Origin: a virus | Virus record (IMG/VR): IMGVR_UViG_3300027736_000021 | Length of the DNA: 64,000 bases | Reading direction: 5' to 3' (one strand) | Part shown: positions 7,679 to 37,559 of the stretch, in pieces | How the letters are laid out: each line of letters begins with the position of its first letter | How positions within the stretch are numbered: position 1 is the first letter of the stretch | Position numbers and translations under genes: made by a program | The notes under the pieces: model-generated | The model's database searches: none | What the model was told of the DNA's origin: nothing | Seen by the model: the letters and a program-made list of their open reading frames with translations, nothing else

Positions 7679-9142
7679 TTGGATATTAGACTAGAGAAAG
7701 TCAATGAAGCTTTTATTCGTGTTCACTCAGAAAGAAACATAGCTCAAGAACTTTCAGATTACTTTACTTTTTTTGTACCAGGTTACCAATTTACACCTGC
7801 ATACAAAGCACGATATTGGGATGGAAAGATACGCCTATTGGACTTACGAACAATGGGTTTGTATCATGGCCTTGTTCCTTATATTCAAAAGTTTGCTGAA
7901 GAAAGGCAATATCAAGTAGAGATTGATTCAGAGGTAACTGCTACTGAAAATTTCTCAATCAAAGAAGCCAAAGATTTTATTGAAACACTTAATCTTCCAC
8001 ATGAAGTGCGAGATTACCAATTAAATTCTTTTGTTCATGCAATACGAAACAAACGAATACTTCTATTATCTCCTACGGCATCAGGTAAATCTCTTATTCT
8101 TTATTTGATACTCCGTCAAATACAAGATGCTAACCATAAAAAAGGTCTATTAATTGTTCCAACTACATCATTGGTTGAACAAATGTATAAAGACTTTCAA
8201 GATTATGGATACGATTCAGATAAACATTGTCACCGACAGTATGCAGGTAAAGACAAGGTCACAGATAAGTTTTTAACCATTACTACATGGCAATCTATCT
8301 ACAAAAACCCACCAGAGTATTTTGAACAATATGATTTTGTTCTTGGTGATGAAGCACATCAATTCAAAGCTAAATCACTTACAACAATTATGTCTGGCAC
8401 AATTAATGCCAAGTATCGTATTGGTTGCACAGGTACATTAGATGGTACTCAGACACATCGCCTTGTATTAGAAGGTCTATTTGGTCCTGTTTATAGAGCC
8501 ACTTCTACCGCAGAGTTAATTCAAAATAAACAATTAGCAGATTTCAAAATCAAATGCCTTATATTAAAGTATCCTGATTCTGTTTGTAAAATGGCTCGTG
8601 ATTGGGACTACAATACAGAAGTTGAATATATAGTTATGAGCGCTGCTAGAAATGAATTCATTAAAAATCTAGCACTATCTTTAGAAGGTAATTCTCTTAT
8701 TCTTTTCCAGTTTGTAGAAAAACATGGCAGAGATTTACATTCAATTATCAAAGAACAAGCAAAGAATCGCCAGGTATTCTTTGTTTACGGAGGAACAGAT
8801 GTTGAAGTCCGTGAATCAATTCGTGCTATTACTGAAAAAGAAAAAGACGCTATTATTGTGGCATCTTATGGCACTTTCTCTACTGGTATTAACATTCGCA
8901 ATCTACACAATATCATCTTTGCAAGTCCTTCTAAATCAAGGATTCGTAATTTGCAATCTATCGGTAGAGGTTTACGGATAGGTGATGATAAAACTGAAGC
9001 CACATTATTTGATATCTCTGATGATTTCCGTATAGGCAAATTTACCAATTACACCTTGAAACATTTCGTAGAACGTGTTAAAATATACGATGATGAAAAA
9101 TTCAATTACAAGTTTTATAACATAGACCTAAAAAATGGATAA
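7679..9142 (+). CDS. uvsW: SF2 helicase UvsW
   Basis: WDGKIRL, SPTASGKS, DEAH and QSIGRGLR; TTG start. Confidence 0.96.
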   Translation: MDIRLEKVNEAFIRVHSERNIAQELSDYFTFFVPGYQFTPAYKARYWDGKIRLLDLRTMGLYHGLVPYIQKFAEERQYQVEIDSEVTATENFSIKEAKDFIETLNLPHEVRDYQLNSFVHAIRNKRILLLSPTASGKSLILYLILRQIQDANHKKGLLIVPTTSLVEQMYKDFQDYGYDSDKHCHRQYAGKDKVTDKFLTITTWQSIYKNPPEYFEQYDFVLGDEAHQFKAKSLTTIMSGTINAKYRIGCTGTLDGTQTHRLVLEGLFGPVYRATSTAELIQNKQLADFKIKCLILKYPDSVCKMARDWDYNTEVEYIVMSAARNEFIKNLALSLEGNSLILFQFVEKHGRDLHSIIKEQAKNRQVFFVYGGTDVEVRESIRAITEKEKDAIIVASYGTFSTGINIRNLHNIIFASPSKSRIRNLQSIGRGLRIGDDKTEATLFDISDDFRIGKFTNYTLKHFVERVKIYDDEKFNYKFYNIDLKNG

Positions 9143-11679: not shown

Positions 11680-13388
11680 TATTATTTCGTAAAATAAAAT
11701 GGAAAAATCTGTTAAGTACCGGCAACCACTTTACAGAAATACAATTTGATAAATCACCTAGCACATTAATAGTTGGTTCAAACGGAGCAGGTAAATCTAC
11801 AATGCTTGATGCATTGTGTTTTGTTTTGTTTGGCAAACCATTTCGCTCGGTGAATAAACCATTGTTATTAAATTCAATCAATGGTAAAGATTGTCTTGTT
11901 GAAGTTGAATTTAATTCTGGCAACAAGCACTATAAGATTGTTCGTGGCATTAAGCCAAATGTGTTTGAGATTTGGCAAGATGGTGAGATGATTAATCAAG
12001 ATGCTGCTGTAAGAGATTACCAAGAATACTTAGAGAAGTTTATTCTTAAATTAAACTATAAATCATTTACACAGATTGTCATTCTTGGTTCAGCATCGTT
12101 TACACCATTTATGCAACTATCGGCATCTGACCGCAGAGCAATCATTGAAGAACTTTTAGATATTCAGGTGTTTTCTGCCATGAATAATATTTTAAAAGAT
12201 AAGATTACAATGAACAAAGATGCCACAATAACTAAAAAATATGATATTGATTTGGCTGAACAGAAGTATAGTTTACAGAAAAAACATATTGATGAACTAA
12301 AACAAAACAATGAAGATAAGGTAAAAGAATATGAAGGTGAGATTAGTGGTAGTGCGAACACCATATCCACGCTGGCAGAACAGATTGAATTGTTCTCTAA
12401 CGAAGTTCGACAGTTACAAATACTCGTCAATGCGAAGGCTGAAACAGAGGCTAAGGTCAAAAAGATTACAAAACTTGAATCGCAAATTGAAAGCAACTTA
12501 TCCAAATTTCGTAAGGATATCAATTTCTTTCAACACAATGACGATTGTCCAACGTGTAGGCAAGCCATTGCCATGGAATTCAAAGAGAAGGAACTTACCT
12601 TACTTGGCACCAAGGTTACGGAATGTGACCATGGCTTGCAAGAGTTAGAGAAGAAGTTATTAGCAGAACAATCTAAACTGAATTCAATCTCTGAAACACA
12701 AAAGAAAATTCAAGAATTGCAAATTGAAATTGCAACCAAAAATACCACTATTACCGAAACAAACAAATATATTAAACGGTTAGAAAAACAGATTGAAGAT
12801 TTGAAGTTAAACAAATCAAGTACCGACAAAGAAGAACAAGAATTAAGTATCATAAATGAATCATTAAGTCAGTTAAAGCAACATTTAAGAACCCTTATAG
12901 ATGAAAAAACATATTATGAAGTAGCGTCTGGCTTGTTGAAAGATACAGGTATTAAGACCAAGATTATCAAACAGTATTTGCCAATCATTAACAAATTGGT
13001 AAACAAATATCTGGCATCATTTGATTTCTTTGTGAATTTTAACCTTGATGAATCGTTTAAAGAAACAATCAAATCAAGGCACCGTGATGATTTCACCTAT
13101 GATTCTTTTTCAGAGGGTGAAAAACAAAAGATTGATTTGGCATTATTGTTTAGTTGGCGTGCTGTTGCTAAACTAAAAAACTCTGCCAATACTAATCTAT
13201 TAATACTTGATGAAGTGTTTGATTCGAGCCTTGATGCCAATGGCACGGAATATCTAATGACCATATTGCAGATGCTAGAAGGCACAAATGTATTTGTTAT
13301 TTCTCATAAAGGTGATATACTACAAGATAAGTTCCGTAATGTAATTCGTTTTGAGAAGGTTAAAAATTTTAGTAGGATTGTAAAATGA
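11676..13388 (+). CDS. gp46: Recombination ATPase subunit (gp46, Rad50-like)
   Basis: GSNGAGKS, CPTC zinc hook, FSEGEK signature, LDE and ISH. Confidence 0.96.
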   Translation: MILFRKIKWKNLLSTGNHFTEIQFDKSPSTLIVGSNGAGKSTMLDALCFVLFGKPFRSVNKPLLLNSINGKDCLVEVEFNSGNKHYKIVRGIKPNVFEIWQDGEMINQDAAVRDYQEYLEKFILKLNYKSFTQIVILGSASFTPFMQLSASDRRAIIEELLDIQVFSAMNNILKDKITMNKDATITKKYDIDLAEQKYSLQKKHIDELKQNNEDKVKEYEGEISGSANTISTLAEQIELFSNEVRQLQILVNAKAETEAKVKKITKLESQIESNLSKFRKDINFFQHNDDCPTCRQAIAMEFKEKELTLLGTKVTECDHGLQELEKKLLAEQSKLNSISETQKKIQELQIEIATKNTTITETNKYIKRLEKQIEDLKLNKSSTDKEEQELSIINESLSQLKQHLRTLIDEKTYYEVASGLLKDTGIKTKIIKQYLPIINKLVNKYLASFDFFVNFNLDESFKETIKSRHRDDFTYDSFSEGEKQKIDLALLFSWRAVAKLKNSANTNLLILDEVFDSSLDANGTEYLMTILQMLEGTNVFVISHKGDILQDKFRNVIRFEKVKNFSRIVK

Positions 13389-14152
13389 ACTTTGAACAAT
13401 ATTTAAGAAACTATAAAGAAGTAATCGACAAAGAAGTAGAAGGTTGGTTTTACCCTAAAGACATTATCATTACATACGGAATTTTAAAAGAATTACAGAA
13501 ACCAAAAGGCGATGTGTGTGAGATTGGTGTTGCATATGGTAAAAGTGCCATTGCTATCTCACAATTTATTGGTAACAATAATTTTTATCTATATGATATT
13601 TTTTCTGAATCTGATAAAGAAAAAGCCACATCTAATATTACAAAGTTTGGTAATCCCAATAATTTGATTTGGAGATTAGAAGATACAACAGAATTAAAGT
13701 TTGATGATATTGTCTTTCAAAATGAATTAAGGTTTCTTCACATTGATGGTTGCCATGAACACTCGGCTGTATTAAGTGATTTGATGTTGTTTAGTAGTAA
13801 GATGAGAGATGATGGTATTATTGCACTTGATGACTTTCAAGACCAAGAATATCCTGGTGTGAATAGTGCAGCCTTTCAATTCTCTTTATCAAATATCAAT
13901 TATAAAAATTGGAGAGTGTTTGCCATTGGCGACAATAAAGCATATATGTGCCAAAAGAAATATGCCGAATTATATCAAAAAGCTTTAATAGATTACATTC
14001 AGAAGGCAAAAGAACAATATAATGTTCCGTTTGCCATGCATTTGGGTTTGCGTGAACTTTTGGATATCAATGTTCTTATGTGTGATTCCAGAACGGCATG
14101 GGATCCACAGGTAATAAAAGAATCTTTGTTTGACAAACCAATAATAGGATGA
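13385..14152 (+). CDS. Class I SAM-dependent methyltransferase (Methyltransf_24-like)
   Basis: EIGVAYGKS, FLHIDGCH and GIIALDD. Confidence 0.8.
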   Translation: MNFEQYLRNYKEVIDKEVEGWFYPKDIIITYGILKELQKPKGDVCEIGVAYGKSAIAISQFIGNNNFYLYDIFSESDKEKATSNITKFGNPNNLIWRLEDTTELKFDDIVFQNELRFLHIDGCHEHSAVLSDLMLFSSKMRDDGIIALDDFQDQEYPGVNSAAFQFSLSNINYKNWRVFAIGDNKAYMCQKKYAELYQKALIDYIQKAKEQYNVPFAMHLGLRELLDINVLMCDSRTAWDPQVIKESLFDKPIIG

Positions 14153-14156
14153 TATA

Positions 14157-14351
14157 ATGGATGAATTCAAAAAATTAAGTGAGTATACCGATGGGCATAA
14201 CCGAACTGGCCAAGTATACCTAACAGGTGTAGGCAAATCTAGGTTTATGGCCTTGCTTTATGAAGCAGAAACAGATTATAATGATGCTAAGTATTTTGAC
14301 AGAGAAGAAGATGCCGAAATTTGTGCAGAAGATTGGGTAATGAAAACATGA
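14157..14351 (+). CDS. Hypothetical protein
   Basis: 64 aa ORF, SD AGGA, stop overlaps the next start. Confidence 0.55.
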   Translation: MDEFKKLSEYTDGHNRTGQVYLTGVGKSRFMALLYEAETDYNDAKYFDREEDAEICAEDWVMKT

Positions 14352-14932
14352 GTGATATTTTTACAATTGATACCGAAGAAGGTATTGTTAAAGATAAAGA
14401 AGAAGTAATTAATCCGCTATCGTTGTTTAACGAAGATTATCCAATGCTTCTTCAAAAGATACCTGAATATGATGTTAGTAGATTGCCAAATCCAGTTCTT
14501 GGTAAATTAATCAAGCGATTGAAAATGACCATGAAATTGCATGGTGGTATTGGACTATCTGCTAATCAATGTGGAGTATTTGAAAGAGTTTTTGTAATTG
14601 GTGCCAATGATGCAGTTTGGGCTTGTATCAATCCAAAAATTCTTAATGCTTCGCCTGACTTGATACGAGATAAAGAAGGATGTTTATCTTTTCCTGGCTT
14701 AGCACTTAATGTAGAAAGACATTCTTGGGTAGAAGCAGAGTTTATTAACGAAGAATGTAAAGTTGTGCAAATGCGTTTTGAAGGTTTAACAGCAAGATGT
14801 TATCAACATGAACTTGACCATATGAATGGTATTAGGTTTACCAACCATGTTAAACCACTCGCACTAGAAATGGCAAAGAAACAACAAAAGAAGTTAATTA
14901 AAAAAATTATGAGATTGCATAAAAAAATATGA
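14348..14932 (+). CDS. def: Peptide deformylase
   Basis: GIGLSANQ, EGCLS and QHELDH; ATG 14348 overlaps the upstream stop. Confidence 0.95.
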   Translation: MSDIFTIDTEEGIVKDKEEVINPLSLFNEDYPMLLQKIPEYDVSRLPNPVLGKLIKRLKMTMKLHGGIGLSANQCGVFERVFVIGANDAVWACINPKILNASPDLIRDKEGCLSFPGLALNVERHSWVEAEFINEECKVVQMRFEGLTARCYQHELDHMNGIRFTNHVKPLALEMAKKQQKKLIKKIMRLHKKI

Positions 14933-16260
14933 TTGATGCTAAAGCTGATGTAGAAGAACAATGGAAACAATGGCAAGATGAGAATCCGCCAAGTTCTTTT
15001 GTTGATATTGATGAGAGTGTTCTCAAAGAGCAAGTTATCAATGATTTAACCTATGTTTCAAAAATGGATGTAAAAGAATACACACTCTATCAAAAGTGGT
15101 GTGAAATCAAAGAGAAATATCCTACTGTTATTAATCAAACTTTATTTGGTGAAGAAGTTCAGCTTGTTGACCCAAATCAACAAAAGGTTGTTGATGAAAT
15201 TAAGGCATCTATTTGGGTGCCACAATCAGCTGAAGATTATCTCAACTTACAACCTGTATTAGAATATACAGATGATTCTGGTAAAGATATGCAGATTGGT
15301 ATTGATGGTAAAGAATTTGAAGTAGAAAAGAAACGAAGTAAAGACTTACCTGAAAGATGGAACACAGTTCGTAATTTCATTTCAACAATGAAGAACAATA
15401 GTAACATTGGTCGCAACCTAAACTTCTTGGTTCGTGACCAGGTGACAGGCAAGTATCTAGGTGTCATCTGTATATCATCTGACTTCTTAGACCTTACTCC
15501 TCGTGATGAGAAGATTGGTTGGGCTCGTGAATTAAAGACACAAGGCAGTATGATTAATCACACGGCAATTGGTTCTACTATCGTTCCATTTCAACCACTT
15601 GGTTACAATTATGTTGGTGGTAAATTATTGGCATTACTCTGCCTATCTGATGAAGTGCAAAGATTATGGAAAAAACAATATGGTGATGTGTTGATTGGTG
15701 TAACAACAACATCATTGTATGGTAGAACAAAGGCTGATGGTCTATCACAATATGATAACCTTGACCACTGGCAGAAGATGGGTTTCACGGCAGGTTCAGT
15801 ATCATTTGAACCAAGTAGAAAAGTCCGTGGCAATATCATTAACTGGTTAAAAAAGAATCATACTCGTAATTACTTTGAATGGTATGTTGCAAAGAAACCA
15901 TCAGGTCAACCACACAAACGTGACCATAAGAATCGTTCACTAGGCTTTACTTATAGTAAACTAGGCATTCCTAAAGAGTTGATTAGAACTGACCATGCTC
16001 GAGGCATTTACTTCTCACCATTGTATGATAACTCTTATGAGTTTCTCCGTGGTGAAATCAAAGAAGAACAGTTGGTAAAATCATTTGATACCAGCTATGA
16101 ATCATTGGTGAATATCTGGAAAACAAAACACGCCATTGGCAGAATTAAACAATTGACCAAAAAGAATAAAGTATCCTATGAAACATTGTTTTATGATGAT
16201 TTGATTTACCTTTCATGGGAAGAAACAAAGGCAAAATATCTAGGTCAAGTAGGCAGATAA
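14929..16260 (+). CDS. DUF4338/DruA-like protein (putative GNAT/Mom-like transferase), copy 1
   Basis: IVPFQPLGYNYVGGKLLA, TTTSLYG, SQYD and GFTAG; same motif set as 36441-37559. Confidence 0.7.
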   Translation: MIDAKADVEEQWKQWQDENPPSSFVDIDESVLKEQVINDLTYVSKMDVKEYTLYQKWCEIKEKYPTVINQTLFGEEVQLVDPNQQKVVDEIKASIWVPQSAEDYLNLQPVLEYTDDSGKDMQIGIDGKEFEVEKKRSKDLPERWNTVRNFISTMKNNSNIGRNLNFLVRDQVTGKYLGVICISSDFLDLTPRDEKIGWARELKTQGSMINHTAIGSTIVPFQPLGYNYVGGKLLALLCLSDEVQRLWKKQYGDVLIGVTTTSLYGRTKADGLSQYDNLDHWQKMGFTAGSVSFEPSRKVRGNIINWLKKNHTRNYFEWYVAKKPSGQPHKRDHKNRSLGFTYSKLGIPKELIRTDHARGIYFSPLYDNSYEFLRGEIKEEQLVKSFDTSYESLVNIWKTKHAIGRIKQLTKKNKVSYETLFYDDLIYLSWEETKAKYLGQVGR

Positions 16261-16281
16261 AAACTTTTGCCGTTAAAACGC

Positions 16282-16310
16282 TTGACAAGTTACATATATA
16301 ATGTTATAGT
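16282..16310 (+). promoter_or_regulatory. Sigma70-type promoter for the tRNA-like gene
   Basis: TTGACA-17 nt-TATAGT with extended -10 TG, ending 9 nt before the tRNA 5' end. Confidence 0.75.
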
Positions 16311-16319
16311 ATTGAATAT

Positions 16320-16388
16320 GCGGTGGGTTGTAGAACAAGTTGGACTTCCCGTTTAATTAACCTTGTGCAACTCAAGGCCACCGCTCCA
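16320..16388 (+). tRNA. Atypical tRNA-Gly(UCC), 69 nt, reduced D arm, encoded CCA
   Basis: Acceptor GCGGTGG/CCACCGC, U73, CCA; T arm CCTTG-TGCAACT-CAAGG; anticodon arm TTGGA-CTTCCCG-TTTAA (two G-U pairs); only 13 nt between the acceptor and anticodon stems. Confidence 0.85.
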
Positions 16389-16400
16389 CTATAAAAGACT

Positions 16401-16571
16401 ATGTTTACATTTCTAGGCATCGTAGGTTTTCTAATCACATTACTTGTTGCCATACCAGCAACATTAATCGCTTTCGCCTCTCTCATTGAACACCCAATAA
16501 AAACAATCATCAAATTGTGGGCAGATGTGGTTGAAACTTATCGCACTCTTTGGGAAAACATTTCAAAATAA
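16401..16571 (+). CDS. Small membrane protein (56 aa, absent from the ORF track)
   Basis: MFTFLGIVGFLITLLVAIPATLIAFASLIEHP...; hydrophobic N-terminal helix. Confidence 0.6.
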   Translation: MFTFLGIVGFLITLLVAIPATLIAFASLIEHPIKTIIKLWADVVETYRTLWENISK

Positions 16572-16786: not shown

Positions 16787-16828
16787 GCTTGACTTTCCTC
16801 TTGACTTTCCTCGTGGTTCGTGTATAAT
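16764..16828 (+). promoter_or_regulatory. Sigma70-type promoter with upstream TGTTG-N8-CAACA palindrome and a tandemly duplicated -35
   Basis: Palindrome 16764-16781; CTTGACTTTCCT twice (16788-16811); TATAAT 16823-16828. Confidence 0.65.
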
Positions 16829-16854
16829 GGTTGCATATTAATTAGAAAGTTCAT

Positions 16855-19209
16855 ATGGCATTTACAGTAGAATCTAAATCACAATTGGCAAAGTTACTTG
16901 CCACAGAAAATCTTACTATCGAGCATCAAAAGATTCGCACAGCAATGTTCGACCCTAAAAATCGTGTTCTCTATTGTCCTATCTGGAAAGATATGACTGG
17001 TGCTACATACGACCATATGTTAGGTCATGAAGTTGGTCATGCTCTCTATACACCTGCCGAAGGTTGGCATGAAGCGGCTTCTTCTCTTGGTGCCAAATAT
17101 AAAGGCTTCTTGAATGTAGTTGAAGATGCTCGTATTGAGAAAAAAGTAAAACGAAAATATCCTGGTATTCGTTCCTCATTCGTTAAAAGTTATCAAGCAC
17201 TTTTTGATAAAGACTTTTTCGGTATTAAAGGTCGTGATTTGAATAGTTTATCATTTATTGACCGCCTTAATCTTCATACAAAATCTTCTGGCACAACCAA
17301 AGTAGAATTTACCAATGAAGAAATGAAATTGGTAAAACAAGTTGAAGCTTGTGAAACATGGGAAGATGTCATTCGTGTTACAAAAGCCGTATTCAATTAT
17401 TCTAAAGATGAACAATTTGAAATGTTACAGCAATTGTTGGCAAGTATGGATTACCAACAAGATGGCGAAGAATCGGAATCTAACGATGATGGTTATGAAT
17501 ATTCAGAATATGATGAAGAAGGTGAAGAAGAAAAAGACGGCTCTCAAAGCGGTGATATGAAAGGCGAAAGTGGTTCAGAAAAACAAGAAGCCAAAAAATC
17601 TAATTCTGAAAATGATAATGGTGAAGAAAATGATAGTGATGAAAATGGCAATTCAATCAATCACGATAAAGAATCTAAGCCTACTGATATTGACCAGTTT
17701 GAACCTTCTTGTGAAACCGATGAAAACTTCCGTAAGAATGAAGATAGTTTAGTTTCTCAAGAATGTAAACCATACATTTATGGTAAAATTCCTAAAGCAA
17801 ACCTTGATAACATTGTTACTTCTGCCAAGCGTGTGCATGAGTTATTAGAAAAATATTATTTCAACCATAATGGTTCTCTTGAGCGTAATGCTCGTTTTGA
17901 ATCATATGCTTCATCTAAAGTGAAGGAATTCAAATCAAAGAATGAGCGCTATGTTAGTTTATTGGCCAAAGAATTTGAAATGAAGAAAGCCGCTCGTGCT
18001 TATGCAAAGGCTAAAGTGTCTAATACAGGTGACATTGATATCAGTAAACTATACAAGTATCAAGTGGAAGATAATATCTTCCGTAAGATGATGAGAGTAC
18101 CAAAAGGTAAATCTCACGGCTTAGTATTGTTGCTTGACCGCTCTGGTTCCATGTCCCGTAATATGGCAGGTTCAATTGAACAGATTTTGGTTCTTGCCAT
18201 GTTCTGCCGTAAAGTGAATATTCCATTTGTTCTGTATGGTTTTGGTGATGTAACAGAAAGCCGTTACTTTGATTACCCTAACCGAGATTACAAAAAAGAA
18301 AAATGCTTTGAACAAAATGTAAATGAATTTTGTTTTGATACGGTATATTTGCGTGAGTATATCAATTCAAAAATGAGCAATTCAGAATTTAATCGTTGTA
18401 TTCGTAATTTGGTTTTGCTAAAAGAATCTTATACAAGCAATTATCATTCTCTTGGTCGACCAAATAGTGAGCATCTTGGTAATACTCCTTTATTGCAAGC
18501 GATGATTGCATTAGAACCAATTACAAAACAATTCCGTAAAGTGAATAATTTAGATTTGGTTAACCTTGTGATTATCCATGATGGTGATGCTGATAATACA
18601 AATAGAATATGTCAAGAAAGAGATCCTTATGAATGGGAAAAACAAGGTGAAAAAGTAGTGAAACCTACAGGTTTCAATAGCTCTCGGGAAAATGTATTCA
18701 TTAAAGATTATGAATCCAAATTACAAATTAAACTTGAATCGTCCGTTCTTAATGGGTATTATGATGAATCATTTCGCATCGGTATATTTAATTGGTTCCG
18801 TGCCAAGACTGATGCAAAGATTTTTGGTTTCTTTATTGCAGGCCAAGGTCGTGAATTGAGGCAGGCTATTGCACACAGATATACTAATAAAGATGGTAAA
18901 TCTATTAATGAGATGATTAAAGAAAAATATAGTGCTACTCATATGATGATTTCGCCAGATAAAAGTGATATTGTTAAAGACATTGCTGCTAAAATGAAAA
19001 GTGAAAAGTTTATTCAATCTTACAATAAAGGCTACGAATCATTCTTTATTATGCCTGGTGGTTCTGATTTACAGATTGAAGATGAGGAGTTGGTTGTAAC
19101 TGGTACGGTAACCGCTAATAAATTAAAAACGGCATTTATGAAAATGAATAAAAAGAAAGCGGTTAACCGTGTGATGGTGTCAAGGTTCATTGATGGCATT
19201 GCTGCCTAA
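16855..19209 (+). CDS. HExxH + acidic linker + vWA domain protein (CobT-like partner of a MoxR ATPase)
   Basis: HEVGH, NVVEDARIE, long acidic linker, MIDAS DRSGS and HDGD. Confidence 0.85.
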   Translation: MAFTVESKSQLAKLLATENLTIEHQKIRTAMFDPKNRVLYCPIWKDMTGATYDHMLGHEVGHALYTPAEGWHEAASSLGAKYKGFLNVVEDARIEKKVKRKYPGIRSSFVKSYQALFDKDFFGIKGRDLNSLSFIDRLNLHTKSSGTTKVEFTNEEMKLVKQVEACETWEDVIRVTKAVFNYSKDEQFEMLQQLLASMDYQQDGEESESNDDGYEYSEYDEEGEEEKDGSQSGDMKGESGSEKQEAKKSNSENDNGEENDSDENGNSINHDKESKPTDIDQFEPSCETDENFRKNEDSLVSQECKPYIYGKIPKANLDNIVTSAKRVHELLEKYYFNHNGSLERNARFESYASSKVKEFKSKNERYVSLLAKEFEMKKAARAYAKAKVSNTGDIDISKLYKYQVEDNIFRKMMRVPKGKSHGLVLLLDRSGSMSRNMAGSIEQILVLAMFCRKVNIPFVLYGFGDVTESRYFDYPNRDYKKEKCFEQNVNEFCFDTVYLREYINSKMSNSEFNRCIRNLVLLKESYTSNYHSLGRPNSEHLGNTPLLQAMIALEPITKQFRKVNNLDLVNLVIIHDGDADNTNRICQERDPYEWEKQGEKVVKPTGFNSSRENVFIKDYESKLQIKLESSVLNGYYDESFRIGIFNWFRAKTDAKIFGFFIAGQGRELRQAIAHRYTNKDGKSINEMIKEKYSATHMMISPDKSDIVKDIAAKMKSEKFIQSYNKGYESFFIMPGGSDLQIEDEELVVTGTVTANKLKTAFMKMNKKKAVNRVMVSRFIDGIAA

Positions 19210-35851: not shown

Positions 35852-36444
35852 AACACAAAATACTTTACGACAAGTTACATTCTTATTCTCACCGATTCTG
35901 TGGTGAAAAAACTCTCAATCAAGTAATTTATTGGACTAGAAGAATGTTGGCTGAGCATAAAGTCAGAGTAAAAAAATATATTGATAAGACCAATACATCA
36001 TATAGTATTCTTTGTGTTGGTGGTTATTATGACCCAACAATTTATGATGGTAAAGATATTGAAATGTTTATTTCTTTTAATGAAAATGAAAAAGATGTAT
36101 CATTTAAGCTTGAAGAACCAACTGTAAAGGTTTTTATTGATGAAGTATTCAAAACATTGGTGCATGAAAAAAGGCATCGTTATCAATTTCGCCAAAGAGG
36201 CAATAACTTTGGTAAACAATACAGAAGTAATGTAGAGGATAAAACATTGAAGGTTCAACTAGAGTATTACGGTGACGATGATGAGATAGATGCCTATGCA
36301 CAAGAGGCAGTAATAGAGATGCGGTTACATGGCAACTCCCACTCTAAGGAAATGTATCAGATTTTATTTGCAAAAACAGACCCGGTAGTGTATAATAGAT
36401 TTTTAAAGAAATTCATTAAATACAATCAGAAAATTACACTATGA
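35848..36444 (+). CDS. HExxH zincin-like protein
   Basis: LVHEKRHRYQ and downstream EIDAYA. Confidence 0.55.
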   Translation: MKHKILYDKLHSYSHRFCGEKTLNQVIYWTRRMLAEHKVRVKKYIDKTNTSYSILCVGGYYDPTIYDGKDIEMFISFNENEKDVSFKLEEPTVKVFIDEVFKTLVHEKRHRYQFRQRGNNFGKQYRSNVEDKTLKVQLEYYGDDDEIDAYAQEAVIEMRLHGNSHSKEMYQILFAKTDPVVYNRFLKKFIKYNQKITL

Positions 36445-37559
36445 AATTAAATAAAGAACAAGCCATATATTGTGCCAAATACATGGAAGATTATTACCAT
36501 CATTTTGACCGCATTGATGATTATATGCGTAGTCAAAAAATGGGACAAATTGCAGAGATGCCTGTTTGTTTACCAGGATGTGGGCCTGAAGAAGATTTGT
36601 TCTCTGATTTCACCATTCATCCAGACGATATGGAGTTTGAATTGGTTGATATTGGTTCTTCTCGTTGGTTAGATTATATCTCCGTTATTTCTTCTCACCT
36701 AATCTCTCGTAGTGTTCCCGGTCGCATAGTTCAGTTTGCTGTATTTGAAAAGAACACAAAGAAGATTGTTGGTTTCATTCGCCTTGGTTCTCCCGTCATC
36801 AATATGAAACCTCGTAATGAAATGCTTGGTCAAGTATTCACACAGAGCAAAGAAGCCGCAAGAAACTTTAATAACTCGGCTGCAATGGGTTTCACCATTG
36901 TTCCTGCTCAACCATTTGGTTTCAATTATCTTGGTGGTAAATTACTTGCCGCTATGTGTTGTTCTCATGAATTGCGTGGAGTTATGAACAAAAAGTATGG
37001 TATGAATCTCTGCTTGTTTGAAACAACCAGTCTGTATGGTTCTTCAAAGACAGTATCACAGTATGATGGTATGAAACCATATCTCCGTTTCAAAGGTCTA
37101 ACTGATAGTAACTTTGTACCAATGCTTGACGGGGATGCCTACAAGAAACTTAAAGACTATGTTGAGGCTGCAACAGGTGAACAATTGGTTGATCCATCCG
37201 ATTCAAGTAAGAAACTCAAAGCAACAATAAAAGTTATTAGTATGGTTAAGATGGCACTAAAAGGTGAACCTGAACTCACACGATTCAATGAAGTGATTGA
37301 TAAGGCTAAAGGTCTTACTGAAAGAAAACGATACTATATCTCCAACTATGGTTTCAAAAACTTTATTGAAGTGGTTAATGGCACAGAAACAGAGTTGGTT
37401 CCTGACCCCGAAAACTATGAAAAGTTTCACATGAAAAACATCGTGGAATGGTGGAAAAAGAAAGCATCCAATCGTTTTGAAACATTAAAGAACGATGGCC
37501 GTATCAGAACCGAGATGGAAGTATGGTCTGGCGATAAAGAGATTGACATTATCCGTTAG
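36441..37559 (+). CDS. DUF4338/DruA-like protein, copy 2
   Basis: IVPAQPFGFNYLGGKLLA, ETTSLYG, SQYD and GLTDS. Confidence 0.7.
   Translation: MKLNKEQAIYCAKYMEDYYHHFDRIDDYMRSQKMGQIAEMPVCLPGCGPEEDLFSDFTIHPDDMEFELVDIGSSRWLDYISVISSHLISRSVPGRIVQFAVFEKNTKKIVGFIRLGSPVINMKPRNEMLGQVFTQSKEAARNFNNSAAMGFTIVPAQPFGFNYLGGKLLAAMCCSHELRGVMNKKYGMNLCLFETTSLYGSSKTVSQYDGMKPYLRFKGLTDSNFVPMLDGDAYKKLKDYVEAATGEQLVDPSDSSKKLKATIKVISMVKMALKGEPELTRFNEVIDKAKGLTERKRYYISNYGFKNFIEVVNGTETELVPDPENYEKFHMKNIVEWWKKKASNRFETLKNDGRIRTEMEVWSGDKEIDIIR

What the first reader, a model, noticed from the sequence alone, without database searches (positions are those of the whole stretch)
14929..16388. Candidate tRNA-dependent modification system: DUF4338 enzyme plus a dedicated non-ribosomal tRNA-Gly
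Seen: a 443 aa DUF4338/DruA-like gene ends at 16260 and a glycine-identity tRNA-like gene starts 59 nt later; a paralogue lies at 36441 at the end of the replication operon. Established: GNAT-fold Fem ligases take Gly from Gly-tRNA, and staphylococci keep special tRNA-Gly species out of translation for this. Phage Mu Mom is a GNAT-fold enzyme that hypermodifies adenine and, as I recall, was recently reported to use Gly-tRNA(Gly). Inference: DUF4338 is a Mom-like glycyltransferase, and the phage supplies its own EF-Tu-evading donor tRNA to modify its DNA against restriction. The two paralogues could be a heteromer or have different targets. The fold assignment and the substrate (DNA, protein or envelope) are my inference and are not shown by the sequence.
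Basis: partly seen in the sequence, partly recalled or inferred. Interest (0 to 1): 0.92.

Follow-up and report, generated by a model that had tools for sequence, protein, structure and literature searches.

The report
Miniature phage tRNA-Gly beside DruA-like GNAT
A marine T4-like phage carries, directly after a Mom-like (GNAT-fold) enzyme gene, a conserved 69-nt miniature glycine tRNA that standard tRNA finders miss, which may donate glycine for a reaction outside protein synthesis; that role is not yet shown.

Summary
ORF 14929-16260 is a DruA/DUF4338 protein, and a 372-aa paralogue lies at 36441-37559. Positions 16320-16388 hold a real small-RNA gene with its own sigma-70 promoter.

ARAGORN (default) and Rfam do not call this RNA. 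However, 36 distinct relatives found 3' of the same gene in related contigs, or a few kb from it in two isolates, fold into one reduced cloverleaf. In that fold 93% of cells pair against about 40% in slid controls, and 17 of 22 pairs covary.

The invariant bases are exactly the bacterial GlyRS identity set (G1-C72, C2-G71, G3-C70, U73, C35, C36), plus G53-C61 and an encoded CCA.

One complete relative genome has canonical tRNA-Gly(UCC) and tRNA-Gly(GCC) in a tRNA array as well as this mini-tRNA. That points to a role outside translation.

Both paralogues model confidently as GNAT folds. Phage Mu Mom, the Gly-tRNA-dependent DNA modifier, is the top structural neighbour of both (Z 9.9 and 9.7), but the margin is under 1 Z and there is no profile-level sequence homology.

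Functional coupling between the enzyme and the RNA, and the acceptor of any transfer, remain inference. The RNA-enzyme linkage is seen in only one phage lineage. An obligate heteromer of the two paralogues is unlikely.

The parts
14321..14932 (+). Peptide deformylase gene. Its stop overlaps the DruA-like start by 4 nt. It is a conserved upstream neighbour and serves here as context.
   Evidence: Pfam Pep_deformylase E 4.4e-35; NCBIfam TIGR00079 113 bits; ORF coordinates. The same gene order occurs in Mosig, where the upstream gene is annotated as a putative peptide deformylase; the upstream gene in HTVC008M is annotated only as hypothetical.
14929..16260 (+). DruA/DUF4338-family protein, paralogue 1 (443 aa). 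It has an acidic N-terminal domain, a GNAT-fold core (about residues 102-387) with a helical insertion, and a basic C-terminal helical region.
   Evidence: Pfam and PADLOC DruA. AF2 model with pLDDT 94.4. VIA-align top match is Mom 8bv8_B at Z 9.9, rmsd 3.9, 173 aligned, followed by generic GNATs at Z<=9.0. Foldseek gives weak GNAT hits only. pI by segment is 4.3, 7.9 and 9.65.
16282..16310 (+). Sigma-70-type promoter of the small RNA (TTGACA, 17 nt, TATAGT with an upstream TG). The -10 element ends 9 nt before G1.
   Evidence: Promoter scan, 11 of 12 matches. A -10-like hexamer lies 5-19 nt before G1 in nearly all related loci.
16320..16388 (+). Miniature tRNA-Gly(UCC)-like RNA, 69 nt. It has a 7-bp acceptor stem, a 3-bp/4-nt D hairpin with no 8-9 linker, a 7-bp anticodon stem with loop CUUCCCG, a 2-nt variable region, a 5-bp T stem with loop UGCAACU, a U73 discriminator and an encoded CCA.
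   Evidence: Sequence. Covariance models R1 and R2 score 76-78 bits, E about 1e-18. Covariation. Invariant positions. ARAGORN -mt calls it Gly(tcc). It is a single copy in the window.
16401..16571 (+). A 56-aa ORF starting 12 nt after the RNA, with no terminator in between. In this phage it is probably co-transcribed with the RNA. It is a variable neighbour in relatives.
   Evidence: ORF list. No family hit. The first ORF downstream of the RNA falls into at least 8 unrelated clusters across loci.
36441..37559 (+). DruA/DUF4338-family protein, paralogue 2 (372 aa; phrog_19197). It lies in the replication module after UvsX and the gp41-like helicase.
   Evidence: Pfam DruA E 8.5e-13. phrog_19197 E 1.2e-141. 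AF2 pLDDT 87.5. VIA-align top match is Mom 8bv8_B at Z 9.7 with 165 aligned. Homologues in 25+ Synechococcus phages; in the four with annotated clamp-loader genes among the five loci examined the gene lies between the gp44 and gp62 clamp-loader genes.

Best explanation
The locus holds two separate things that are each well supported, plus an inferred link between them.

Shown:
1. Positions 16320-16388 are an independently transcribed, selectively maintained miniature tRNA. It keeps every element bacterial glycyl-tRNA synthetase is known to read, together with the acceptor/T-arm helix and the CCA end. It has lost the elbow features that ordinary elongator tRNAs have.
2. The gene immediately upstream encodes a GNAT-fold protein of the DruA/DUF4338 family.

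Inferred:
3. Host GlyRS charges the mini-tRNA with glycine.
4. The charged mini-tRNA serves as a dedicated, non-ribosomal glycyl donor for the DruA-like enzyme. The enzyme would transfer glycine to an acceptor in the manner of Mom, Fem or L/F-transferase.
5. The acceptor is unknown. The repeated placement of phage DruA-like genes inside replication and recombination modules, and the resemblance to Mom, make DNA the leading guess, with protein second.
For: The RNA is real:
- On a plain MAFFT alignment of 21 sequences, 94.2% of cells pair against 36-50% when the partner is slid. 15 of 22 pairs change on both sides. 0 of 500 shuffles reach the observed values on four of the five measures, and 1 of 500 on the fifth.
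- On 36 distinct sequences, 93% of cells pair and 17 of 22 pairs covary.

Glycine identity:
- G1-C72, C2-G71, G3-C70, U73, C35 and C36 are invariant in 36 of 36 sequences while almost everything else varies.
- This is the experimentally defined bacterial Gly identity set (PMC9976931 Table 1).
- ARAGORN -mt assigns Gly to 14 of the 36 sequences tested, including the window's.

The RNA is its own transcription unit. A -10 element lies 5-19 nt upstream in nearly all loci, and a terminator-like hairpin plus U-run follows in 21 of 44.

A role outside translation is likely:
- There is no Rfam tRNA or default ARAGORN call.
- The D arm is 3 bp with no GG, and some members have loops of only 4-6 nt.
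- The complete 168.9-kb genome G003 has 34 ordinary tRNAs, including tRNA-Gly UCC and GCC. It also has the mini-tRNA(UCC) about 74-82 kb away from that array, next to the DruA-like gene.

Linkage to the enzyme:
- The RNA follows the DruA-like gene in 61 of 78 loci spanning 67-100% protein identity.
- The gap between them is as small as 1-19 nt in some loci.
- The first ORF downstream of the RNA falls into at least 8 unrelated clusters.

The enzyme:
- The GNAT fold is modelled with high confidence.
- Mom ranks first of 48,161 chains for both paralogues, with the longest aligned stretch.
- Mom transfers Gly from Gly-tRNA(Gly) to DNA (PMC13219725).

DNA context: phage DruA-like genes lie beside gp46; after UvsX, a gp41-like helicase and an unassigned 198-aa ORF; between gp44 and gp62; or between PolB and RecA.
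Against: - There is no direct evidence that the enzyme touches the RNA.
- The adjacency is within a single phage lineage, so it may be inherited synteny.
- The enzyme occurs without an adjacent mini-tRNA in two clades (L054-L064, L068-L075). It also occurs alone in distant contexts (L092, L094).
- Cyanophages with paralogue 2 show only canonical tRNA-Gly or none.
- In HTVC008M and Mosig the related tRNA-Gly(ACC) lies 4-6.5 kb from the gene.
- Mom's lead over ordinary acetyl-CoA GNATs is 0.5-0.9 Z, which the tool treats as a tie.
- Foldseek gives only weak GNAT hits.
- hhalign against a Mom-family profile gives a probability of 0.15%.
- A Q-x-x-G motif after strand beta-4 (Q222..G225) could still bind CoA.
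- The authors of the Mom study state that Mom's own co-substrate could not be predicted from structure.
Confidence: 0.4

Rival explanations
1. The mini-tRNA works independently of the DruA-like enzyme, and the adjacency is inherited gene order. The RNA would be a decoy or sponge. It could protect against host tRNA-targeting defences such as TacT-type GNAT toxins, which acetylate Gly-tRNA(Gly), or anticodon nucleases. Alternatively it could titrate or report on GlyRS and glycine status in a glycine-limited host. The DruA-like protein would be an ordinary acyl-CoA-dependent acyltransferase acting in DNA metabolism.
For: Linkage is seen in only one lineage, and the enzyme exists without the RNA in several contexts. 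In the isolates the tRNA-Gly(ACC) lies kilobases away. Generic acetyl-CoA GNATs score within 1 Z of Mom. A partial Q-x-x-G CoA-type motif is conserved. TacT toxins specific for Gly-tRNA exist (PMC13219725; PMC9241777).
Against: The RNA stays glued to the 3' end of the DruA-like gene, with gaps down to 1-19 nt, while the downstream neighbours turn over. No host toxin or nuclease partner is known. A decoy for an anticodon nuclease would be expected to keep a normal 7-nt anticodon loop, but several members have loops of 4-6 nt.
Confidence: 0.3
2. The mini-tRNA is the substrate rather than the donor. The GNAT would acylate the alpha-amine of the glycine on the charged mini-tRNA, as TacT/AtaT do. 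Alternatively it would acylate a cytidine of the conserved CC(C) loop, as TmcA makes ac4C. Either product would have a regulatory or priming role.
For: GNATs that take tRNA as substrate are established (TacT, AtaT, TmcA; PMC13219725 Fig. 5). TacT3 is among the structural matches at Z 7.7. The loop cytidines are invariant.
Against: C35 and C36 are already explained by GlyRS identity. The TacT match is no better than that of any other GNAT. Acetylating a dedicated non-translating tRNA has no obvious purpose.
Confidence: 0.1
3. It is simply a structurally reduced but translationally active phage tRNA-Gly that supplements GGN decoding, unrelated to the neighbouring gene.
For: Phages of this group carry many tRNAs. 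The acceptor/T-arm helix, G53-C61, A58 and CCA are kept. HTVC008M and Mosig have a fuller 74-nt version.
Against: It is not recognised by RF00005 or by default ARAGORN. The D arm is 3 bp without G18G19, and T-loop position 55 is G in 27 of 36 sequences. The anticodon loop shrinks to 4-6 nt in several members. A34 (anticodon ACC) occurs in 12 of 36. G003 already has canonical tRNA-Gly(UCC) and tRNA-Gly(GCC). Outside animal mitochondria, such reduced tRNAs are not known to work with standard EF-Tu and ribosomes (background knowledge; PMC4013460, PMC12221289 listed).
Confidence: 0.1
4. It is not an RNA gene in its own right but a structured leader, terminator or processing signal for the flanking mRNAs.
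For: In this window no terminator separates it from the 56-aa ORF 12 nt downstream. In L072 it starts 1 nt after the DruA-like stop codon.
Against: It has its own promoter in nearly all loci and its own terminator in about half. The downstream gene is not conserved. The conserved bases are an aminoacylation identity set plus CCA, not an RBS or terminator feature.
Confidence: 0.05

Closest known systems
Phage Mu Mom (Pfam PF25680), the GNAT enzyme that transfers glycine from Gly-tRNA(Gly) to N6 of adenine in dsDNA (PMC13219725)
   Same: Both are phage-encoded with a GNAT core carrying an extra helical insertion. Mom is the top structural neighbour of both paralogues (Z 9.9 and 9.7; 173 and 165 of 202 residues aligned). 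A glycine-specific tRNA is implicated in both cases. One GenBank record already labels a paralogue-2 homologue 'methylcarbamoylase mom'.
   Different: There is no sequence homology (no PF25680 hit; hhalign probability 0.15%). The proteins here are 372-443 aa against 241 aa, with additional N- and C-terminal domains. Equivalence of Mom's catalytic residues R111, S124, D149 and R151 was not tested. Mom uses host tRNA-Gly and has no dedicated tRNA. No modified base is known for these phages.
Non-proteinogenic tRNA-Gly isoacceptors of Staphylococcus aureus with FemXAB transferases (PMC7826273)
   Same: Both involve extra tRNA-Gly species that keep GlyRS identity but deviate from elongator features. 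Both coexist with canonical isoacceptors and are associated with a GNAT-fold aminoacyl-transferase.
   Different: The staphylococcal tRNAs are full-size cloverleaves found by standard tools. Here the RNA is 62-69 nt with a 3-bp D stem and a 7-bp anticodon stem. FemA is only a mid-table structural match (Z 8.0). EF-Tu discrimination is not tested here. The system here is viral, not cellular.
DruA of type I Druantia (Pfam PF14236 / PADLOC DruA)
   Same: Significant domain-level sequence matches. DUF4338 is described as a GNAT domain (PMC10853773). DruA-like proteins were already noted in six Synechococcus phages (10.1101/2025.08.05.668817).
   Different: The gene here is in a lytic T4-like phage, inside DNA-metabolism operons. 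It is not shown to sit with DruB-E. The function of DruA itself is unknown, so the match gives no mechanism.
Reduced (D-arm-poor) metazoan mitochondrial tRNAs
   Same: Miniaturised cloverleaf architecture. ARAGORN's mitochondrial mode recognises the element as tRNA-Gly.
   Different: Mitochondrial tRNAs function in translation with co-adapted factors. This RNA is phage-encoded, in a bacterial setting, and carries a bacterial Gly identity set and an encoded CCA.

Membership tests
DruA / DUF4338 (PF14236) | Sequence match to the family HMM above the curated threshold | tested here: met
   Paralogue 1 scores 78.7 bits and paralogue 2 scores 48.5 bits against a cut-off of 27. PADLOC DruA gives E 1.3e-18 and 4.6e-10.
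Type I Druantia defence system | DruA encoded together with DruB, DruC, DruD and the DruE helicase | not tested
   Only the two DruA-like proteins were scanned against PADLOC. The annotated neighbours are phage replication/recombination genes and a peptide deformylase.
Mom family (PF25680) | Sequence match to the Mom HMM or profile | tested here: not met
   Pfam scans at E<=0.01 list only DruA, whereas Mu Mom itself hits PF25680 at 2.4e-75. hhalign of the DruA-like profile against the Mom profile gives probability 0.15%, E 0.38.
Mom family (PF25680) | GNAT fold with a Mom-like extra insertion, closest to the Mom crystal structure | tested here: inconclusive
   8bv8_B ranks first for both models (Z 9.9, rmsd 3.9, 173 aligned; Z 9.7, rmsd 3.5, 165 aligned). 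The next GNATs are at Z 9.0 and 9.2, within the tool's tie margin.
Mom family (PF25680) | Catalytic residues equivalent to R111, S124, D149 and R151 | not testable with these tools
   No residue-level structural superposition is available. The conserved residues of the DruA-like family are listed.
GNAT superfamily | GNAT core fold | tested here: met
   All top Foldseek and VIA-align matches are GNATs, covering residues about 102-387 (paralogue 1) and 60-324 (paralogue 2). Independent literature assignment in PMC10853773.
Fem-type aminoacyl-tRNA transferases | Tandem-GNAT Fem fold as closest structural relative | tested here: inconclusive
   FemA 1lrz scores Z 8.0-8.1 with rmsd 6-8 A, which is not better than single-domain GNATs.
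Canonical bacterial elongator tRNA (Rfam RF00005) | Match to the tRNA covariance model or a default tRNA finder | tested here: not met
   No Rfam hit even at E<=10. ARAGORN in default mode finds none. RF00005 does not report the homologous element in G003.
Canonical bacterial elongator tRNA (Rfam RF00005) | 7-bp acceptor stem, 5-bp T stem with G53-C61, 7-nt T loop with A58, discriminator and CCA | tested here: met
   Alignment A7: G53-C61 in 36 of 36, A58 in 34 of 36, UCCA in 36 of 36.
Canonical bacterial elongator tRNA (Rfam RF00005) | U8, a 4-bp D stem with G18G19, and the T54-Psi55-C56 elbow contacts | tested here: not met
   The D hairpin follows the acceptor stem directly. It has 3 bp and a 3-4 nt loop without GG. 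T-loop position 55 is G in 27 of 36.
Bacterial tRNA-Gly (GlyRS identity set) | U73, G1-C72, C2-G71, G3-C70, C35 and C36 (PMC9976931 Table 1) | tested here: met
   All six elements are invariant in 36 of 36 distinct family members, including the window's. Actual charging was not tested.
Non-proteinogenic tRNA-Gly (S. aureus type) | Coexistence with proteinogenic isoacceptors and reduced EF-Tu binding | tested here: inconclusive
   Coexistence with canonical tRNA-Gly UCC and GCC is shown in complete genome G003. EF-Tu affinity cannot be tested with these tools.

The most novel reading that the evidence does not exclude
Abundant marine T4-like phages encode a self-contained two-part glycylation module. 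One part is a DruA/DUF4338 GNAT that works like Mom although it is not detectably related to Mom in sequence. The other is a private miniature tRNA-Gly, charged by host GlyRS but invisible to the ribosome. Together they would install a glycine-derived hypermodification on phage DNA. By extension, this would give the first biochemical activity (aminoacyl-tRNA-dependent transfer) for the DruA component of Druantia defence systems.
Probability: 0.15. Interest if true: 0.93.

Novelty: new variant of a known kind. Interest (0 to 1): 0.78.

Why it matters
The RNA is a previously unannotated family of miniaturised tRNAs in very abundant ocean phages. The protein search listed 3,844 relatives of the neighbouring gene at E<=0.001. 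Standard pipelines miss the RNA. The pelagimyophage literature lists HTVC008M with 0 tRNAs (PMC7029224), yet that phage carries a 74-nt relative.

Reduced cloverleaves of this kind are otherwise known mainly from animal mitochondria. A bacterial-virus example that keeps only the synthetase identity set and the acceptor/T-arm helix is a natural minimal substrate for studying GlyRS recognition. It also bears on how tRNAs are partitioned between translation and other uses.

If the link to the DruA-like GNAT holds, it would be the second tRNA-dependent phage modification system after Mom, and the first with a dedicated donor tRNA. It would also give a testable activity for DUF4338/DruA, whose role in Druantia is unknown.

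Tried and rejected
- Default ARAGORN and Rfam (gathering and E<=10) found no tRNA. This reflects the reduced architecture and is not evidence that the RNA is absent.
- phmmer and profile searches of PDB sequences found nothing relevant.
- Foldseek against the PDB gave only weak GNAT hits with E>=4e-3.
- hhalign against a Mom profile was negative.
- The search for related loci with protein alignments A4 and A8 failed because no stretch was conserved enough.
- Single distant proteins found one viral locus (P0128), no viral locus (P0156) and no relative in the bacterial and archaeal genome collection (P0161). Bacterial DruA neighbourhoods could therefore not be surveyed for tRNA-like RNAs.
- Distant DruA contexts L089-L094 showed no Gly-tRNA-like element.
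- Five cyanophages with paralogue 2 showed no non-canonical tRNA-Gly. S-SSM7 has a canonical tRNA-Gly(UCC) 3 kb away.
- The RNA-model scan in the genome search missed the 74-nt versions in HTVC008M and Mosig, which a pattern search then found.
There are therefore no expression data.
- The heteromer idea was not sent to complex prediction. Paralogue 2 occurs alone in more than 25 cyanophages and paralogue 1 occurs alone in Mosig.
- The N-terminal domain was first considered as a DNA-binding winged helix, but it is acidic (pI 4.3), so that reading was dropped.
- No second copy of the RNA exists in the window.
Full report
**What is at the coordinates**

The + strand carries a peptide deformylase gene at 14321-14932. 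Its end overlaps by 4 nt the start of a 443-aa ORF at 14929-16260. That ORF matches Pfam DruA/DUF4338 (E 5.4e-22) and the PADLOC DruA model (E 1.3e-18).

A second DruA-family ORF of 372 aa lies at 36441-37559, after UvsX, a gp41-like helicase and an unassigned 198-aa ORF. It shares 37% identity with the first ORF over the core 167 residues. It is a strong member of phrog_19197.

Fifty-nine nucleotides after the first ORF's stop codon, at 16320-16388, lies a 69-nt element. It begins GCGGUGG and ends CCACCGC-U-CCA. A near-consensus sigma-70 promoter precedes it: TTGACA at 16282, 17 nt, TATAGT ending 9 nt before G1.

**Genome context**

The nearest cultured relatives at the DNA level are the Pelagibacter myophages Mosig and HTVC008M, family Kyanoviridae. 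They share the gene order gp47, gp46, (oxygenases), deformylase, DUF4338, then a CobT-like 'peptidase'. The protein search listed 3,844 relatives at E<=0.001, mostly from metagenome assemblies.

**Is the RNA real?**

ARAGORN in default mode reports no tRNA in the window. Rfam reports nothing, even at E<=10 on this stretch. Taken alone, the element folds only modestly better than shuffled sequence (z = -2.05).

The comparative evidence is decisive.
- Among 80 IMG/VR loci encoding a 67-100% identical DruA-like protein, 78 reach the gene's 3' end.
- In 61 of those 78, the first 400 nt downstream contain a 62-69-nt element of the form GCGG...CCGCUCCA. Three of the loci without it end too soon to tell.
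- Sequence between the two ends is highly divergent. nhmmer with the window's copy detects only 20 of these loci.

On an ordinary MAFFT alignment of 21 distinct copies I imposed a reduced cloverleaf:
- 7-bp acceptor stem;
- 3-bp D stem with a 4-nt loop, directly abutting the acceptor stem;
- one linker base;
- 7-bp anticodon stem with a 7-nt loop;
- 1-2-nt variable region;
- 5-bp T stem with a 7-nt loop.

On this structure 94.2% of cells form standard pairs, against 36-50% when the 3' partners are slid by 1-3 columns. Fifteen of 22 pairs show changes on both sides. Zero of 500 shuffles reach the observed pairing or covariation score.

Covariance models built from this alignment find every subgroup, including the most divergent ones. 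On 36 distinct sequences the figures are 93% paired and 17 of 22 covarying pairs. That second alignment was fitted to the model, so it leans toward the structure. The first alignment was not fitted.

**What kind of RNA is it?**

In the 36-sequence alignment the invariant positions are:
- G1-C72, C2-G71, G3-C70 and G4-C69;
- the G53-C61 pair;
- U73 and C74-C75-A76;
- two cytidines in the middle loop.

A58 is present in 34 of 36 sequences. With a 7-nt loop the two cytidines fall at positions 35 and 36, giving anticodons UCC, ACC or CCC.

The experimentally established bacterial glycine identity set is U73, G1-C72, C2-G71, G3-C70, C35 and C36 (PMC9976931 Table 1). It coincides exactly with what is conserved here.

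ARAGORN in metazoan-mitochondrial mode calls the window's 69 nt as tRNA-Gly(UCC). It assigns Gly to 14 of the 36 sequences tested.

The RNA also lacks several things:
- the U8/N9 linker;
- a 4-bp D stem with G18G19;
- the T54-Psi55 elbow bases (position 55 is G in 27 of 36).

In several subgroups the anticodon loop is reduced to 4-6 nt.

It is an independent gene in most loci. A -10-like hexamer lies 5-19 nt before G1 in nearly all loci. A hairpin plus U-run follows within about 60 nt in 21 of 44 distinct contexts. In this window no terminator intervenes before a 56-aa ORF 12 nt downstream.

**Is it likely to work in translation?**

The complete, terminally repeated 168.9-kb relative G003 carries 34 Rfam-recognised tRNAs in an array at 82-90 kb. 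These include a canonical tRNA-Gly(UCC) and a canonical tRNA-Gly(GCC). The same genome also has the mini-tRNA(UCC) at 7881-7948, next to its DruA-like gene. RF00005 does not detect that copy.

A redundant, structurally stripped isoacceptor kept apart from the tRNA array and under purifying selection argues for a role other than decoding. This is inference. EF-Tu binding and decoding were not testable.

HTVC008M and Mosig lack the adjacent mini-tRNA. Each has an unannotated 74-nt non-canonical tRNA-Gly(ACC), 4-6.5 kb downstream on the same strand. The pelagimyophage survey lists HTVC008M with zero tRNAs (PMC7029224).

**The protein**

AlphaFold2 with 66- and 44-sequence alignments gives confident models, with pLDDT 94.4 and 87.5.
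- Foldseek against the PDB returns only weak hits (best E 4.3e-3), nearly all GNAT acyltransferases.
- The exhaustive VIA-align search of 48,161 chains ranks the crystal structure of phage Mu Mom (8bv8_B) first for both paralogues.
  - Paralogue 1: Z 9.9, rmsd 3.9 A, 173 of 202 residues aligned.
  - Paralogue 2: Z 9.7, rmsd 3.5 A, 165 residues aligned.
- Ordinary acetyl-CoA GNATs follow at Z 9.0-9.2, with 140-150 residues aligned. FemA scores 8.0-8.1 and TacT3 scores 7.7.

Two models only about 26% identical to each other both put Mom first and with the longest coverage. That is suggestive, but the margin is below the 1-Z tie threshold stated by the tool.

At the sequence level there is no relationship. 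Neither paralogue hits Pfam Mom PF25680. Profile-profile comparison with a 30-sequence Mom alignment gives probability 0.15%.

The literature independently calls DUF4338 a GNAT domain (PMC10853773). It has also noted DruA-like proteins in six Synechococcus phages. One GenBank record labels a paralogue-2 homologue 'methylcarbamoylase mom'.

The same paper cautions that Mom's substrates could not have been predicted from structure.

**Linkage between the RNA and the enzyme**

For a link:
- The RNA is the immediate 3' neighbour of paralogue 1 across the sampled lineage.
- The gap is as short as 1 nt (L072) or 19 nt (L052, L060).
- The first ORF after the RNA falls into at least 8 unrelated clusters.

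Against a link, or limiting it:
- All cases belong to one phage lineage, so the adjacency may be inherited.
- Two clades (L054-L064, L068-L075) have the enzyme without the adjacent RNA. One of these (G004) has canonical tRNA-Gly genes in a tRNA array.
- Distant DruA-like genes between PolB and RecA (L092) or on an integrase island (L094) have no such RNA nearby.
- Cyanophages carrying only paralogue 2, which lies between gp44 and gp62 where those genes are annotated, have no special tRNA-Gly.

The two paralogues occur independently of each other. An obligate heteromer is therefore unlikely.

**Most likely mechanism**

Host GlyRS charges the mini-tRNA. This is inferred from the identity set. 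Because the RNA is a poor ribosomal substrate, the charged form would provide a private pool of activated glycine. That inference rests on the RNA's architecture and its coexistence with canonical isoacceptors.

The adjacent DruA-like GNAT would use this pool to glycylate an acceptor. This is inferred from adjacency, the GNAT fold, the Mom resemblance, and the precedents of Mom, Fem, L/F-transferase and MprF.

The acceptor is unknown. Phage DruA-like genes consistently sit in replication and recombination operons, and the region C-terminal to residue 300 is basic (pI 9.65). Both favour a nucleic-acid target. The tight coupling to peptide deformylase keeps a protein N-terminal target in play.

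I put the donor model at about 0.4 and DNA as the acceptor at about 0.15. The main rival, at 0.3, is that the RNA acts on its own as a decoy or regulator and the enzyme is an ordinary acyl-CoA GNAT.

**Novelty and verdict**

DruA-like genes in phages and Mom's chemistry are already published. The miniature tRNA-Gly family and its association with DUF4338 were not found in the searched literature.

The RNA is a solid new finding. The modification system is a well-motivated, directly testable hypothesis.

Noticed in passing
L082:10881-10954 (KC465899.1 91140-91213, +) and MT647606.1 7779-7852 (-): Pelagibacter phages HTVC008M and Mosig each carry an unannotated 74-nt non-canonical tRNA-Gly with anticodon ACC, a non-canonical T loop and an encoded CCA. 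Published tables list HTVC008M with 0 tRNAs. ARAGORN calls the HTVC008M copy, and models R1 and R2 match both.
   Followed up: partly
L082:7010-7045 and L081:7600-7630: In HTVC008M and Mosig, the intergenic region where the mini-tRNA sits in other phages holds a different conserved hairpin-like motif (GCUGUGCGA..UGACGCA). Its function is unknown.
   Followed up: no
window 14929-14932: The peptide deformylase stop and the DruA-like start overlap by 4 nt, which suggests translational coupling. Deformylase is reported as a core pelagimyophage gene inside a DNA-metabolism operon (PMC7029224).
   Followed up: no
window 16855-19209: The 784-aa 'peptidase' (phrog_459), conserved downstream of the DruA-like gene and RNA, has a weak CobT-like N-terminal match (TIGR01651, E 5.9e-5, far below cut-off). 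CobS lies nearby in relatives.
   Followed up: no
window 16787-16830: A tandem direct repeat (cttgactttcct twice) overlaps a strong TTGACT-16-TATAAT promoter in front of the peptidase gene.
   Followed up: no
L096-L100 (S-SSM7, S-CAM9, S-PRM1, S-SCSM2R, S-SM2): In Synechococcus myophages the paralogue-2 homologue lies directly after the gp44 clamp-loader gene (or a short ORF), and directly before gp62 in the three records that annotate gp62 there. That is an unusual position for a non-replisome gene. The S-SCSM2R record annotates it as 'methylcarbamoylase mom'.
   Followed up: partly
G003:C1:82000-90000 and G004:C1:94000-110500 (L087, L088, L110, L111): Relatives of this phage carry very large tRNA arrays (34 and 26 Rfam tRNA matches, covering most amino acids). 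These include two canonical tRNA-Gly genes with encoded CCA.
   Followed up: partly
window 13385-14152: A Methyltransf_24-domain gene lies between gp46 and the deformylase. Mosig has 2OG-Fe(II) oxygenases at that position, so the slot upstream of the DruA-like gene holds variable modification-type enzymes.
   Followed up: no
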